Assembly: GCF_021869535.1 (NCBI RefSeq)
Contig: NW_026262723.1
Coordinates: forward strand, 88,908,001-88,972,000
Direction of reading: 5' to 3'
DNA length: 64,000 nt
Origin: Mytilus californianus
Taxonomy: Eukaryota
Below are positions 28,745-38,145 of this stretch, one piece after another. Below the pieces are notes generated by a model, which worked only from the letters and a program-made list of their open reading frames with translations, searched no databases and was not told the origin of the DNA. A program made the translations under genes and the position numbers. Within the stretch, counting starts at the first letter, position 1. Each line of letters starts with the position of its first letter.

Positions 28745-29208
28745 TGTTGCGAAGTCAATTAAGTTAACTAATACTTGTCAATTAGAATTTATTGCTTAAT
28801 TTACAAGTATTCAAAGAGCGATTAAAAGTTCAAATAAATGTTTTTCACTGAGACACTGGCCGAGATCTGACGAATTCTGGTGTGATCGAATTGTGTGTTG
28901 AAGTCCAAAATGAGAGATCTTATATAGTCTAGTGGTCCATACAAACGGTCCATAGCTGTAGGCCGGTTACGTAGTAGTCTGGTTGTGGAGTAATACTAGT
29001 CTGTGGTTAATTGTCAAACTATGCAATTAACCCCTGACGGATACATGTTATTTCACAGTAGACATGGTCATTTAGTGGCTGCAGGATATATGTCAATAAT
29101 ATTCGTACAGATTGTTATTAAGTGTCTAAAGGTTACATGTAATCGTCTCGGTTTTGCTGTATGTAGTTACTTCCTGATGATTATCGTATGGAACACAATT
29201 GTGTTACA
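28745..29208 (-). repeat. 3' LTR
   Basis: TG...CA; minus-strand AATAAA at ~28787-28792; PPT GGAGGGAAGG at 29214-29223. Confidence 0.95.
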
Positions 29209-29629
29209 TAATGCCTTCCCTCCAAAATAGAACGAAAGTTCAATAAAATACGGTATTTTTCTTCCTGTAGGTTATTCTAATAGTTTATTGTAAGGTTTCC
29301 GGTAACCATCACCACATATCTAAAGTTTATAAAGTTCTACGAGTCCAATATCATGATATAATAAGTTCATCACATTCATCAAGTCTAATAGCTGGATATA
29401 TTTACACATAGTTCATTCGAATCATAAGTTCAATATTTCGGTATACATAGTTCATGTTTTATTTCCATCACCATCATAGTAAGTTGTTCCTCAATACTGG
29501 GTAGGAACGCAAATGTTTATACAATTCTATTTACACAGTTCATAGGGTCACTTTTAAAATTATTTACACGGTTCGTCTTCTGCTAGTGGATTCGGTCGTC
29601 TACGTTGTATGGTTTACAATCCAGTCCTT

Positions 29630-31648
29630 TTACGAAGTAGTCGACGTATCTAGCTCTGGGTACATCTTTCTCAAGAGACTGGTAGCATCGGTCTTCGGTC
29701 TTGCATCGTCTTTGAGTAATGGTGCAGAGGGAATCTTCTCTCTGGAATCAGGTACTTCTGTCCCAACCATTTGCGTTGTCACCATTTGGTACCCATCGTT
29801 CGTGGCATTAGAACCCGAACTCACACCTTTCTTTTTGGCTAACCAAGATTTGTTTCTAAAAAACTTACAGTACAAAAATATAGCTATTCCAATGAATATC
29901 GCACCCAAACCCAGGGATAAACCTACTCCCCAATTTGGAAATTCAAAATCGTTTTCAATTCCCCTTAAATTTCTAAGTTTTTCAATCAAAGCGTTCATAG
30001 GAATTTGTTTAATCGCCTTTAGTTCTCTTGGTAGTTCAAGCTTTGTAAAATTTGGCAAAGCAGCATGAAAGGGTTCCCATAAACTTGTATTCAGTACTTG
30101 AAAGGTATTTAAGAATCTTTCGAACGTTTTTTCTGTTAAAAATGTACTTTCCATTTGATAAGTAGGTAATAAGGTCAAATGATCACTCGTAGCGGTACAA
30201 GTTCGCTTTAAATTAATTATAGTGGTAGGAGGATTAATTATCTGATCCGTCAACATGTTTGTATTGTCATCACATCTAATAGTGATTCTAAATTCATTAA
30301 TGGTTGTAACTGCCCACATACTATCGGTCAAATAAGTTGCCATAGGCAAAATTGTGTTTGGTCGTACTTTCACTGTACATCTTGTTTTCCAATTTTCTTT
30401 ATTGGCAAATAAGGCTATGATACATAATTTACTTAAATTAACTGGATAAACTGGACTTTTAATTTCACAAAATTTAACTAAAGGATTGGAACACTTGTCA
30501 ATTTCATTGGTATTTAGCAGCATATATTTAGTTTTTTCTTGGTTTGCAGCAATAACTTCTGCTTCTAATTCATACTGAGCAACCATATTGCTCGAGTCAG
30601 ATTGTTTATCAGTTATCGTAGTAGGAACAGGCAAGTTGTGAATCTTATAAATTTCATAAGTGTCTCTTATATCTAGTAATGGTAACGTAATGATAATGAT
30701 TATTTTGTTTTCGTCCAAAACTGTACTACAGGTCAAAAATTTATAAAAATTCCAAATATCTTTAACTTCGTCACCAGGTATCTTTAATGTCGCCGGTAGT
30801 CGTCGTTTTATGTCAGTCAATAATACTCGTAAATTACCGGGTGATATAAGACTGGGTGACATGTGTCCTAAGGACAACATGTTTAGTTGTAATTGCAAAT
30901 GGTTTAAATAATCCCCGGCTATATTCATAAGGTCCTTTATTTCACCTATTATCATGTCCATATGCAAATAAGCTTGTAAATAACTTCCCATAACTTCAAT
31001 TTGTTTTTCTAAATCCGTAGCAAAAGTTTGAAGTCTATTTCCAAGATCTTGAACACTTTCAATCAACTCATTAACCTTGTGTCTATTTTCAGAAACATGT
31101 GTTTGTGTAGTGTTTAAGATAGTTAACCCATCTTGAACAATATGACGAATTGCATCTTGATTTTGTGCCAAAGTTTTGATATTTCTTCGAATTTTTGACA
31201 GGTCGCTGTCTGATACAGTACCAAATAAAAAACTTAATGCCTTGCCTATAATAGGAAATAAGCTACGTTTAGTTTTAAACTTTGCCGTTTCGTCGTAATA
31301 TAAAGATTGGTAATCATTGAATTGTGATTGTAAATAATCTTTAGTCCGATTTAATCCTTCAACCTCCCTTTGTAGACTTAAGATAGTAGCCAAAATGTGT
31401 TTTTTTTCTGGGGTGTAAAACATAGAAATTGTGTGAACTTTTTGTGTAGCGAGAAAAGCCTTGCCCAAGTCTTGTTCTATTTTATTAAGAAATAATTCAA
31501 AAGGATCCAAGTCTACGACAAAAGTAATGAGCCAATTTGACCTTGTGGTTGATATTTCCTTAATTTTTTGAAACATGACATTTTCCTTGACAATGAATTG
31601 GCTGGTTAAGCCAAAAAGAACAAGTGAGAACCACCACCACTTCATCAC
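29630..31648 (-). CDS. env: Envelope glycoprotein, F-type class I fusion protein
   Basis: Hydrophobic N-terminus (ATG at 31645); furin-like site KTKR|SLFPIIGKALSFLFG with fusion peptide; heptad repeats; Cys-rich ectodomain; TM GVGLSLGLGAIFIGIAIFLYC; cytoplasmic tail. Confidence 0.9.
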   Translation of the reverse strand: MMKWWWFSLVLFGLTSQFIVKENVMFQKIKEISTTRSNWLITFVVDLDPFELFLNKIEQDLGKAFLATQKVHTISMFYTPEKKHILATILSLQREVEGLNRTKDYLQSQFNDYQSLYYDETAKFKTKRSLFPIIGKALSFLFGTVSDSDLSKIRRNIKTLAQNQDAIRHIVQDGLTILNTTQTHVSENRHKVNELIESVQDLGNRLQTFATDLEKQIEVMGSYLQAYLHMDMIIGEIKDLMNIAGDYLNHLQLQLNMLSLGHMSPSLISPGNLRVLLTDIKRRLPATLKIPGDEVKDIWNFYKFLTCSTVLDENKIIIIITLPLLDIRDTYEIYKIHNLPVPTTITDKQSDSSNMVAQYELEAEVIAANQEKTKYMLLNTNEIDKCSNPLVKFCEIKSPVYPVNLSKLCIIALFANKENWKTRCTVKVRPNTILPMATYLTDSMWAVTTINEFRITIRCDDNTNMLTDQIINPPTTIINLKRTCTATSDHLTLLPTYQMESTFLTEKTFERFLNTFQVLNTSLWEPFHAALPNFTKLELPRELKAIKQIPMNALIEKLRNLRGIENDFEFPNWGVGLSLGLGAIFIGIAIFLYCKFFRNKSWLAKKKGVSSGSNATNDGYQMVTTQMVGTEVPDSREKIPSAPLLKDDARPKTDATSLLRKMYPELDTSTTS

Positions 31649-31715
31649 TGGTTCTCCCTAAAAATAATGATACATATATAAATTATCATAATATATTTTA
31701 TTTATCTGGCCTTTA

Positions 31716-36430: not shown

Positions 36431-37572
36431 TATACACCCCAGTTTTCTACCATGTTAACAGTCCTAGGTTTTCTATTTGGGCAATTTGGCCTAATATGTC
36501 CCCGTTGATTACACTGATAACAAATTATCTCATTATTTCTTCCCGAATTCCCTTGATATTGTTGCGTTTCAACTGCATTTACTTGTCTATATGTTCCCCT
36601 AGAACGACAATCTCGTGCTATATGTCCTACCTTACCACAAGAATAACAATTAATTTCCCTGTTTCTACCCGAATTTCCGTGATATGTTTGCATTTCTACG
36701 GCATTAATTTGTCTCAAATTTCCCCCAGAACGACAATCACGTGATACATGACCTACTTTACCACAAGAATAACAACGTTTTGCATCACGATAATGATCAA
36801 TTTCCATTGGTTCATGAGAGTTCAAAGGTTCAGTCCGTCGTGGTCTAGTTAATGTCATTGGTCTTATTGTTTTATACCTTGGTTCGTCTACCCTTTCCGT
36901 TCTTAAAGTAAATCTTTTTCTCAAATTTTGTTCAGTCATTGCACTTTTAACTGCCAAAGAAAAAGTAGCTGGGTTTTCTCTCATTAATTTCATTTTTAAA
37001 TAAGAATGAGCCAAACCATCTATAAAAATGCCTACGAGTTCCCTTTCTATAGCTTCATTATTTCCATCTAAATCTGAATATGCCTCATTTGCCAAATTCA
37101 ATAAATTTTCTGCATAAATTTGAACAGACTCGTCCCCTTTTTGTTTTAATTGTCTCAAAAGAGTTGACGCATGTTGAGGGTCCGTAATTTCTCCAAACCT
37201 TGAAGTTAATTCTTTTTTTAATTGTTCCCAAGTGGTATCCCGATGGTCTCTTAAATACCTTTGTATGTAATCTGAACAAGCCCCTTTACATGTTTGAAAA
37301 GCTATTTCCTTAATTCGATCCCTATCATTAAAAAGTAAAGCATATTTTTCAATTGACTTAATCCAGGCTTTAAAATCTTTCGTATTACCTTCAAAAGGCG
37401 TTATTCCTTGAACTACGTTTTGAGAACAAATGGCTGATTTTAACCCTTTTAGTTCGGCGGCTACATCGCCTTGAATAGTAACTACTTCCCTTAACCCATG
37501 AAGTTCGTTCGCGACACCATTGAAAGCTAATTCTACTTTTTGTGCTGACATAGAAGTATCTTGGTTATCCAT
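36418..37572 (-). CDS. gag: Gag with three CCHC zinc knuckles
   Basis: Likely start MDNQDTSM at 37572; CYSCGKVGHVSRDC, CYSCGKVGHIARDC, CYQCNQRGHIRPNC. Confidence 0.93.
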   Translation of the reverse strand: MDNQDTSMSAQKVELAFNGVANELHGLREVVTIQGDVAAELKGLKSAICSQNVVQGITPFEGNTKDFKAWIKSIEKYALLFNDRDRIKEIAFQTCKGACSDYIQRYLRDHRDTTWEQLKKELTSRFGEITDPQHASTLLRQLKQKGDESVQIYAENLLNLANEAYSDLDGNNEAIERELVGIFIDGLAHSYLKMKLMRENPATFSLAVKSAMTEQNLRKRFTLRTERVDEPRYKTIRPMTLTRPRRTEPLNSHEPMEIDHYRDAKRCYSCGKVGHVSRDCRSGGNLRQINAVEMQTYHGNSGRNREINCYSCGKVGHIARDCRSRGTYRQVNAVETQQYQGNSGRNNEIICYQCNQRGHIRPNCPNRKPRTVNMVENWGVYQEN

Positions 37573-37681
37573 TAAAAAAGAATGAAAGCTATGGTAATTG
37601 CAACTTACGTGGTTCCTTTCTATCGTATAGTGGTTAGAAGTCCTGGTTGATCCTTGGTCTGAACGGCACCAATTTGACTTA

Positions 37682-38145
37682 TGTTGCGAAGTCAATTAAG
37701 TTAACTAATACTTGTCAATTAGAATTTATTGCTTAATTTACAAGTATTCAAAGAGCGATTAAAAGTTCAAATAAATGTTTTTCACTGAGACACTGGCCGA
37801 GATCTGACGAATTCTGGTGTGATCGAATTGTGTGTTGAAGTCCAAAATGAGAGATCTTATATAGTCTAGTGGTCCATACAAACGGTCCATAGCTGTAGGC
37901 CGGTTACGTAGTAGTCTGGTTGTGGAGTAATACTAGTCTGTGGTTAATTGTCAAACTATGCAATTAACCCCTGACGGATACATGTTATTTCACAGTAGAC
38001 ATGGTCATTTAGTGGCTGCAGGATATATGTCAATAATATTCGTACAGATTGTTATTAAGTGTCTAAAGGTTACATGTAATCGTCTCGGTTTTGCTGTATG
38101 TAGTTACTTCCTGATGATTATCGTATGGAACACAATTGTGTTACA
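37682..38145 (-). repeat. 5' LTR
   Basis: Matches 28745-29208; minus-strand TATATAAG at ~37856-37863; candidate PBS TGGTGCCGT at 37663-37671. Confidence 0.95.

What the first reader, a model, noticed from the sequence alone, without database searches (positions are those of the whole stretch)
28745..38145. Intact, very young env-bearing retrovirus-like element in a probable mollusc
Seen: LTRs with no visible differences, all four ORFs open, and an F-type env with furin site, fusion peptide and TM. Known: insect errantiviruses use baculovirus-F-related env for cell-to-cell transfer, and env-bearing Gypsy elements are reported in other invertebrates. Inference: potentially infectious and currently active, which matters in bivalves where retroelement transfer and transmissible cancers occur.
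Basis: partly seen in the sequence, partly recalled or inferred. Interest (0 to 1): 0.72.

Follow-up and report, generated by a model that had tools for sequence, protein, structure and literature searches.

The report
Known mussel errantivirus with extra gene
This is an intact, recently inserted virus-like jumping gene of the California mussel that is already catalogued in print; its envelope protein is predicted to let it pass between cells, and it carries an undescribed fourth gene that likely makes a helper protein, but infectivity and present-day activity are untested.

Summary
Observation confirmed. A 9,401-bp minus-strand Ty3/gypsy element (28745-38145) has identical 464-bp LTRs, a 4-bp target-site duplication, and open gag, pol, a 167-codon ORF (ORFx) and env. 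The env is identical to a named Mytilus californianus protein, and its model matches baculovirus F and RSV F (class I fusion fold). The element is already in print: LTR length, LTR spacing, primer-site sequence and offset all match Mollusca_Bivalvia_Mcal_errantivirus_1 (F-type env, 8 copies) in PMC13524379, which reports such elements across most animal phyla and places this one with annelid, mollusc and barnacle elements. Corrections: the cleavage site is K-T-K-R, not the R-x-x-R of 52 of 61 aligned proteins; infectivity, current transposition, insertion polymorphism and cross-species transfer were not shown; no link to transmissible cancer was found. Added here: ORFx is conserved in other Mytilus copies, is absent from two intact distant relatives, has no known homologue, and sits behind the element's best splice acceptor. 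A -1 gag-pol frameshift signal is predicted. Two unlabelled runs hint at transcription but show no splice joint. Already known; interest 0.3.

The parts
37682..38145 (-). 5' LTR, 464 bp, TG...CA
   Evidence: exact repeat of 28745-29208, 0 of 464 differences
28745..29208 (-). 3' LTR, 464 bp
28741..28744 (.). target-site duplication CTTT, left copy
   Evidence: empty-site joint skips 9,405 = 9,401 + 4
38146..38149 (.). target-site duplication CTTT, right copy
37660..37671 (-). primer-binding site 10 nt after the 5' LTR; shares 9 of 12 terminal nt with the tRNA-His(GUG) site listed for most clade relatives
   Evidence: PMC13524379 suppl. 1 rows; relatives L001 and L002 carry the full His-type site
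37603..37608 (-). predicted leader splice donor (GTAAGT)
   Evidence: 1 of 4 GTRAGT matches in the element, the only one upstream of gag; use not shown
36418..37572 (-). gag, 384 aa: Retrotrans_gag/Ty3_capsid and three CCHC knuckles
36383..36427 (-). predicted -1 frameshift signal: G_GAA_AAC directly before the gag stop, 6-nt spacer, 11-bp hairpin
   Evidence: pol is in the -1 frame; -15.3 kcal/mol, z -2.96, 2 of 200 shuffles as good; similar layout in L001, not in L002
32324..36454 (-). pol: protease, RT (YIDD), RNase H, integrase (HHCC zinc site, rve core), acidic/Ser-rich tail
32221..32240 (-). predicted splice acceptor just before the ORFx ATG
   Evidence: rank 1 of 274 YAG sites by a simple pyrimidine score of my own; use not shown
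31716..32219 (-). ORFx, 167-aa orphan accessory ORF; basic (pI 9.4), no TM stretch
   Evidence: 0 of 5,000 shuffles reach this length; 67-80% identical near-full-length homologues; absent from L001 and L002
31658..31677 (-). predicted splice acceptor 12 nt before the env ATG
   Evidence: rank 6 of 274; Mytilus gene models P0035 and P0082 join into env at this point
29630..31645 (-). env, 671 aa, F-type class I fusogen: signal 31645-31586, basic site 31282-31265, fusion peptide 31264-31208, TM 29932-29861
29214..29223 (-). polypurine tract just before the 3' LTR
   Evidence: read from the sequence
24734..39369 (-). interrupted DIRS-type (tyrosine-recombinase) retroelement that is the insertion target; the errantivirus splits the 5' part of its RT frame
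   Evidence: RT, RNase H and methyltransferase-like hits at 25544-27082, all below Pfam cut-offs; Phage_integrase E 1.2e-5, below cut-off, at 24734-25396; RT-like peptides on both flanks, read by eye; DIRS label from own knowledge and PMC12440569 passage

Best explanation
This is an intact, young copy of a multi-copy Ty3/gypsy retrotransposon of Mytilus californianus with an F-type envelope gene, catalogued as Mcal_errantivirus_1, which likely copies itself through tRNA-primed reverse transcription and would use its predicted fusion protein to move from one cell to a neighbouring cell, most likely soma to germ line, within one mussel. Shown: anatomy, open frames, multiple copies, target-site duplication; fold class supported by a model. 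Inferred: Gag-Pol is made by a -1 frameshift at the gag stop; ORFx and Env are made from spliced RNAs that join a leader donor to two acceptors; Env is cut at its basic site by a furin-like convertase and fuses membranes as a class I trimer. ORFx is most likely a dispensable, fast-evolving cytosolic or nuclear accessory protein that blunts a host defence (about 35%). A Rev/CERV-like RNA-export role is next (about 25%); the rest is another role or none.
For: Geometry matches the published row: LTR 3243-3707 and 12180-12644 (464 bp, spacing 8,937, as in the window), PBS TGAACGGCACCA 10 nt after the LTR, ENV_F, 8 copies; the row's contig size equals that of the contig holding the named env protein identical to ours. 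Five 671-aa env proteins at 99.7-100% identity on contigs of five different sizes, 4 of them named M. californianus. Env model pLDDT 78, with top hits baculovirus F and RSV F; 37 of 61 aligned proteins hit Baculo_F. Frameshift hairpin z -2.96. An acceptor-like motif sits just before the env start in 2 of 2 intact relatives (read by eye). Drosophila iERVs make env-F from spliced RNA and infect the germ line from somatic cells (PMC12992720 passages). ORFx: open and conserved at 67-80% while env is 88-97% identical in other Mytilus species; lacking in 2 of 2 intact distant relatives, so it is not needed for the basic cycle. Runs X1 and X2 hold 4.7- and 7.6-kb contigs with 7 and 9 differences and are depleted of a genomic repeat (ratio 168 and 69 against 5,139-9,180 in four DNA-like runs), a weak hint of transcription.
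Against: No particle, fusion or transposition data exist here, and the cataloguing paper says transmission mechanisms are unknown outside Drosophila. No splice joint inside the element among the 3 joints listed for four runs, and the X1/X2 contigs cross the donor and both acceptors unbroken. The cleavage site departs from the family's R-x-x-R. The env itself has no Pfam Baculo_F hit, and TM-scores to F structures are only 0.3-0.5. The PBS pairs with only 9 nt of the His-type end. The ORFx function has no positive test: AlphaFold pLDDT 40, no Pfam F-box hit, Atlas scores 0.79-0.84 are at chance level. The X1/X2 library type is not on record.
Confidence: 0.75

Rival explanations
1. The element moves only inside germ-line cells as an ordinary retrotransposon; env and ORFx are recently silent passengers kept open because the copies are young.
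For: No splice joint in the laid runs; non-canonical cleavage site in the 671-aa M. californianus proteins; envelope loss with a switch to germ-line expression is common in Drosophila iERVs.
Against: Env keeps its cysteines, fusion peptide and TM, and is 97% identical over 540 aa to an M. galloprovincialis copy; K-x-x-R also occurs in 4 other relatives; acceptor-like motifs are kept in distant relatives.
Confidence: 0.2
2. The element is a water- or haemolymph-borne infectious agent that passes between mussels and has crossed between Mytilus species.
For: Env is 97.0% (540 aa) and the pol C-terminal half 95.3% (632 aa) identical to M. galloprovincialis, and the integrase core 98.3% (231 aa) to M. 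edulis, above the 91-93% of one host GPCR orthologue (5 proteins). RNA-labelled runs X15 and X18 hold relatives at 95.9% and 94.5% nucleotide identity.
Against: One host gene is a poor yardstick. With mean dN/dS about 0.12 in Mytilus (PMC5647807) and within-group divergence at most 0.2 (PMC7162527), about 95% protein identity is what vertical descent would give (my estimate). The near-identical holders under other labels look like the same species: X7 carries the unique right flank at about 99% identity, and X14 has the same repeat-to-element ratio. The cataloguing paper finds mainly host-concordant descent.
Confidence: 0.12
3. The copy looks younger than it is: assembly collapse or gene conversion made the LTRs identical, and the family is no longer mobile.
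For: Read-derived contigs show several LTR variants among copies (e.g. 29075, 29147, 29163). The window has a 99.9% tandem duplication at 10.5-17 kb that could be an assembly artefact.
Against: Eight copies at over 98% identity, env proteins at 99.7-100% identity, and kilobase contigs with 0-6 differences in DNA runs of separate studies.
Confidence: 0.1

Closest known systems
Mollusca_Bivalvia_Mcal_errantivirus_1 (Chary and Hayashi, eLife 2026, PMC13524379, supplementary files 1 and 5)
   Same: Species, LTR length 464, LTR spacing 8,937, PBS sequence and 10-nt offset, F-type env, multi-copy status. RT clade G / IN clade Z, shared with 12 bivalve, 4 gastropod, 43 annelid and 3 barnacle-group rows (counted by eye).
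   Different: Nothing in identity that I could test; no element sequence was among the rows I read, so the match rests on geometry and the PBS. The main text has no hit for 'accessory', 'small ORF', 'splic', 'frameshift' or 'CCHC', so ORFx, splice signals and the frameshift site appear undescribed there. Figures and the GitHub files were not seen.
Drosophila errantiviruses / iERVs (gypsy, ZAM; PMC12992720)
   Same: gag-pol-env order, F-type env with signal peptide, basic cleavage site, fusion peptide, cysteines and TM; predicted spliced env.
   Different: Different pol clade per the cataloguing paper; His-like rather than Ser/Lys/Leu primer site; three CCHC knuckles in Gag; an extra ORF between pol and env; infectivity not demonstrated.
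Cer1 of C. elegans with its accessory protein CERV (PMC10309623, abstract only)
   Same: An LTR retrotransposon with an extra protein made from a spliced mRNA; a model for what ORFx could do.
   Different: No sequence or structure comparison with CERV was made; analogy only. ORFx is missing from distant relatives that also appear to splice env.
Steamer and Steamer-like elements of bivalves
   Same: Seen only as search listings and reference titles.
   Different: From recall, Steamer has a single gag-pol ORF and no env. No evidence links this element to it or to neoplasia.

Membership tests
errantivirus, operational sense of PMC13524379 (env-carrying Ty3/gypsy) | Ty3/gypsy pol with PR-RT-RH-IN order, full-length and open | tested here: met
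errantivirus, operational sense of PMC13524379 (env-carrying Ty3/gypsy) | F-type or gB-type env | tested here: met
   Foldseek to baculovirus F and RSV F; 37 of 61 aligned proteins hit Baculo_F
errantivirus, operational sense of PMC13524379 (env-carrying Ty3/gypsy) | LTRs with PBS, intact gag, several near-identical copies | tested here: met
   paper lists 8 copies
'ancient errantivirus' group | pol phylogenetic position and RNase H plus 'mini' domain bridge | not tested
   No tree or bridge model was made here. The paper assigns RT clade G / IN clade Z, whose host make-up fits its tree position A5 (my match, figure not seen).
insect errantiviruses (gypsy/ZAM type) | tRNA-Ser, -Lys or -Leu primer site | tested here: not met
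   PBS is a degenerate His-type site
insect errantiviruses (gypsy/ZAM type) | canonical R-x-x-R furin site before the fusion peptide | tested here: not met
   K-T-K-R here; 52 of 61 aligned proteins have R-x-x-R. Whether it is cleaved is untested.
insect errantiviruses (gypsy/ZAM type) | env made from a spliced RNA | tested here: inconclusive
   donor and acceptor motifs present; no splice joint in contigs of 4 runs
insect errantiviruses (gypsy/ZAM type) | infectious particles moving from soma to germ line | not testable with these tools
   needs tissue and particle work
F-box proteins (considered for ORFx) | Pfam F-box match at the N-terminus | tested here: not met
   no F-box hit up to E 10; Atlas rows with F-box clusters score only 0.79-0.80

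The most novel reading that the evidence does not exclude
The Mytilus lineage of this errantivirus is a 'complex' invertebrate retrovirus: it gained a fourth gene (ORFx) behind the ancestral env splice acceptor, makes it from its own spliced RNA, uses it as a fast-evolving antagonist of host defence or as an RNA-export factor, and releases enveloped particles into haemolymph that have carried it between Mytilus species. It would be a recently expanded, particle-forming retrovirus-like agent in a bivalve.
Probability: 0.12. Interest if true: 0.75.

Novelty: already known. Interest (0 to 1): 0.3.

Why it matters
The element type, and this family itself, is in print, so the headline is not new. 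Its value is as a tractable test case. The cataloguing paper states that how env-bearing elements transmit is unknown outside Drosophila. This family is young, multi-copy, apparently transcribed and sits in an accessible intertidal mussel, so soma-to-germ-line transfer and particle release could be tested by observation. The orphan ORFx is the one part that seems undescribed. If it is a true accessory gene, it shows an invertebrate errantivirus gaining retrovirus-like complexity within one host genus.

Tried and rejected
Whole-genome copy census and orthologous empty-site test: no genome is held for this window. Pfam and PDB sequence searches do not place env; only the fold and its homologues do. 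ORFx placement failed by every route: Pfam, PDB profile (best E 1.2), 1.84-billion-protein HMMER scan (5 hits; those with names are Mytilus), ESM Atlas (below 0.9), AlphaFold (pLDDT 40, so no fold search was run), metagenome scan (0 of 98 pattern matches). Env relatives in viral contigs: 0 of 34. Insertion polymorphism: the empty-site joint 28740>38146 appears in 3 of 4 DNA-like runs, but the target is a multi-copy DIRS-type repeat and the joint depth matches all its copies, so it is not taken as polymorphism. The shared contig ends of X1 and X2 at 28931 and 37897 were rejected as transcript ends: in LTR register they overlap by 30 nt, as expected of a graph branch. X1 and X2 show no cover over 38417-39500 where DNA runs do, which is not used as evidence. 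Organisms B and C were considered as recipients of horizontal transfer and rejected as unsupported. No published M. californianus versus blue-mussel dS value was found in passages of two papers. PMC29073 was not held. Earlier scan notes: nothing on this element. No RT tree and no complex prediction were run.
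Full report
1. Observation. The region holds a minus-strand LTR retrotransposon of 9,401 bp. The LTRs are 28745-29208 and 37682-38145, 464 bp, with 0 differences, and begin TG and end CA in element sense. CTTT flanks both ends, a 4-bp target-site duplication; DNA runs show an empty-site joint that skips exactly 9,405 bp. Zero differences in 464 bp give a 95% upper bound of 0.0065 substitutions per site between the LTRs; with an assumed rate of 1e-9 to 1e-8 per site per year that is under about 0.3-3 million years. Four frames are open: gag with capsid-like and three CCHC motifs, pol in the order protease, RT, RNase H, integrase, a 167-aa ORF (ORFx) and a 671-aa env.

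2. Host and prior description. The env is identical to XP_052082136 of Mytilus californianus. Its 90% cluster has five 671-aa members at 99.7-100% identity on contigs of five sizes, four of them named M. californianus, plus one M. galloprovincialis protein. A search for errantivirus + env + mollusc (6 papers, 5 listed) led to Chary and Hayashi 2026 (PMC13524379). Its supplementary file 1 lists five M. californianus elements. Only row Mcal_errantivirus_1 fits: LTRs 3243-3707 and 12180-12644 (464 bp, spacing 8,937, as in the window), PBS TGAACGGCACCA 10 nt after the LTR, F-type env, 8 copies at over 98% identity, on a contig of the same size as that holding the identical env protein. The match rests on geometry and the PBS, as the rows I read carry no element sequence. 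Supplementary file 5 puts it in RT clade G / IN clade Z with 12 bivalve, 4 gastropod, 43 annelid and 3 barnacle-group rows (part 1 of 8, counted by eye). The paper reports 1,512 such elements, 1,386 of them multi-copy, argues for ancient and mostly vertical descent and against a baculovirus source of env, and says transmission mechanisms are unknown outside Drosophila. I read its abstract, sections 5, 6 and 9 (first parts), 7, 14 and 22, search passages and supplement rows; not its figures or GitHub files.

3. Env. The window's env has no Baculo_F hit itself, but 37 of 61 aligned proteins do (the alignment used 60 of the hits, chosen as long and mostly non-Mytilus). AlphaFold on residues 1-592 gave pLDDT 78, pTM 0.69. 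Foldseek's best hits are baculovirus F proteins (E 3e-21; TM about 0.5) and RSV F (E 2.4e-10; TM 0.3-0.4). The basic site reads K-F-K-T-K-R; 52 of 61 aligned proteins have R-x-x-R, 5 have K-x-x-R and 4 other. The hydrophobic segment that follows is strongly conserved, and one TM stretch lies near residues 572-595. From recall, a basic residue at P6 can support cleavage when P4 is not Arg, so processing is plausible but untested.

4. Expression strategy (inferred). Pol lies in the -1 frame relative to gag. G_GAA_AAC sits directly before the gag stop, followed after 6 nt by an 11-bp hairpin (-15.3 kcal/mol, z -2.96, 2 of 200 shuffles). Relative L001 has a similar heptamer and hairpin; L002 does not (1 of 2). 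A GTAAGT donor lies in the leader at 37608. The best acceptor of 274 candidates lies just before the ORFx ATG and the sixth best 12 nt before the env ATG (my own simple score). Both intact relatives have an acceptor-like motif right before their env start (by eye). Drosophila iERVs make env-F by splicing (PMC12992720, passages). Against this, none of the 3 joints listed for four laid runs lies in the element, and long contigs cross the donor and both acceptors unbroken. The PBS pairs with 9 nt of the tRNA-His end that most clade relatives use.

5. ORFx. No shuffle of the 678-nt pol-env spacer reaches 167 codons (0 of 5,000, maximum 103). Homologues with the same start and end occur at 67% (M. 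coruscus) and 79-80% (an M. edulis model and an unnamed protein), while env is 88-97% identical in other Mytilus species, so ORFx is kept open yet evolves faster. A full HMMER scan of 1.84 billion proteins gave 5 hits only. Of 8 related loci from metagenomes, two are intact gag-pol-env elements (pol 54% and 43% identical); in both, env follows pol within about 70-130 nt and no ORFx homologue is found. ORFx therefore looks like a Mytilus-lineage gain placed behind the ancestral env acceptor. It is basic (pI 9.0-9.5 in three copies) and has no TM stretch. No family, fold or Atlas match was obtained. Because relatives manage without it and it changes fast, a host-defence antagonist is my first guess (about 35%); a CERV/Rev-like export factor (PMC10309623, abstract) is second (about 25%). 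The cataloguing paper's main text has no hit for accessory, small ORF, splic, frameshift or CCHC, and searches showed no paper on this ORF in their listings; extra ORFs in LTR elements are known in general (PMC5408684, listing only).

6. Activity, expression and spread. Of 24 listed runs, 14 hold half or more of the element's words. In DNA-like runs X3, X7 and X10, element contigs have 0-6 differences per 0.4-2.8 kb and roughly 15-25 times the depth of unique flank pieces (the tool warns this is no copy number). The empty-site joint is seen in 3 of 4 runs, but the target is a multi-copy DIRS-type element, so polymorphism is not shown. X1 and X2 (library not on record) hold contigs of 4,739 and 7,552 nt with 7 and 9 differences, and their repeat-to-element depth ratio is 168 and 69 against 5,139-9,180 in the four DNA-like runs: a weak hint that they are RNA libraries with full-length transcript. 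RNA-labelled runs X15 and X18 hold relatives at 95.9% (219 differences in 5,332 nt; 6 of 8 listed pieces, leaving out one repeat piece and one LTR-edge piece) and 94.5% (195 in 3,555 nt; 8 of 8 listed pieces); their host species is not given and DNA carry-over is not excluded.

7. Horizontal transfer. Env is 97.0% and the pol C-terminal half 95.3% identical to M. galloprovincialis, and the integrase core 98.3% to M. edulis, against 91-93% for one host GPCR orthologue. That is a hint, but published mean dN/dS near 0.12 (PMC5647807, passages) and within-group divergence of at most 0.2 (PMC7162527, passages) make about 95% an ordinary value by my estimate. Run X7 (label B) carries the unique flank at about 99% identity and X14 (label C) has the same repeat-to-element ratio, so neither shows a foreign host. 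A search for Mytilus + LTR retrotransposon + envelope + horizontal transfer gave 2 papers, neither on this element by title and abstract start (passages of one read). No link to transmissible neoplasia was found or tested.

8. Verdict. It works like a Drosophila errantivirus by inference; it is a member of the operational errantivirus group and, per the paper, of a non-insect clade. What is added is ORFx, the predicted splice and frameshift signals, the non-canonical cleavage site, the nested insertion and a weak hint of full-length transcription. Novelty: already known. Interest 0.3.

Noticed in passing
window 24734-39369 (-): Nested insertions: a DIRS-type element (recombinase, RT-RNase H-methyltransferase-like and gag-like frames) is interrupted by the errantivirus, by a 141-bp high-copy repeat at about 38256-38396 (joint) and by an RT fragment plus high-copy repeat at about 27083-28601.
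   Followed up: partly
window 27258-27959 (+): A 233-codon frame with a YLDD motif, probably the end of a Penelope- or LINE-type RT (by eye; no useful Pfam hit).
   Followed up: no
window 10538-16965: A 3.2-kb tandem duplication at 99.9% identity that includes an exon of a QRFP/CCK-type GPCR; either very recent or an assembly artefact.
   Followed up: partly
window 15960-23002: A second tandem duplication of about 3.3-kb period (98.9% over 3,758 bp) with a 294-344-codon frame and, on the other strand, a His-Me finger endonuclease-like frame at 22007-22465 (PF05551, E 3e-14).
   Followed up: no
fold search of the env model, rank 12: An uncharacterised 801-aa protein of abalone herpesvirus (A0A145VUZ2) matches the F-type env model at E 8e-18; two ranid herpesvirus proteins match more weakly. 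A class I F-like protein in a mollusc herpesvirus may bear on where such env genes are exchanged.
   Followed up: no
window 36517-36775 (-): The three Gag zinc knuckles lie in a 126-bp tandem repeat, units about 80% identical.
   Followed up: no
window 28931-29438, runs X1 and X2: LTR and 3' untranslated contigs have about 10 times the depth of the internal region and carry up to 8 differences, suggesting related non-autonomous or solo-LTR copies that share this LTR; DNA runs also show internally deleted forms (joints 33123>33774, 34502>34944).
   Followed up: no
window 3307-6912: Long inverted repeats (88-92% complementary), probably a decayed DNA transposon or foldback element.
   Followed up: no
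L001:183-7256 and L002:551-7896: Two near-complete related F-type errantiviruses in metagenome contigs, both with a full tRNA-His-type primer site and no ORF between pol and env.
   Followed up: partly
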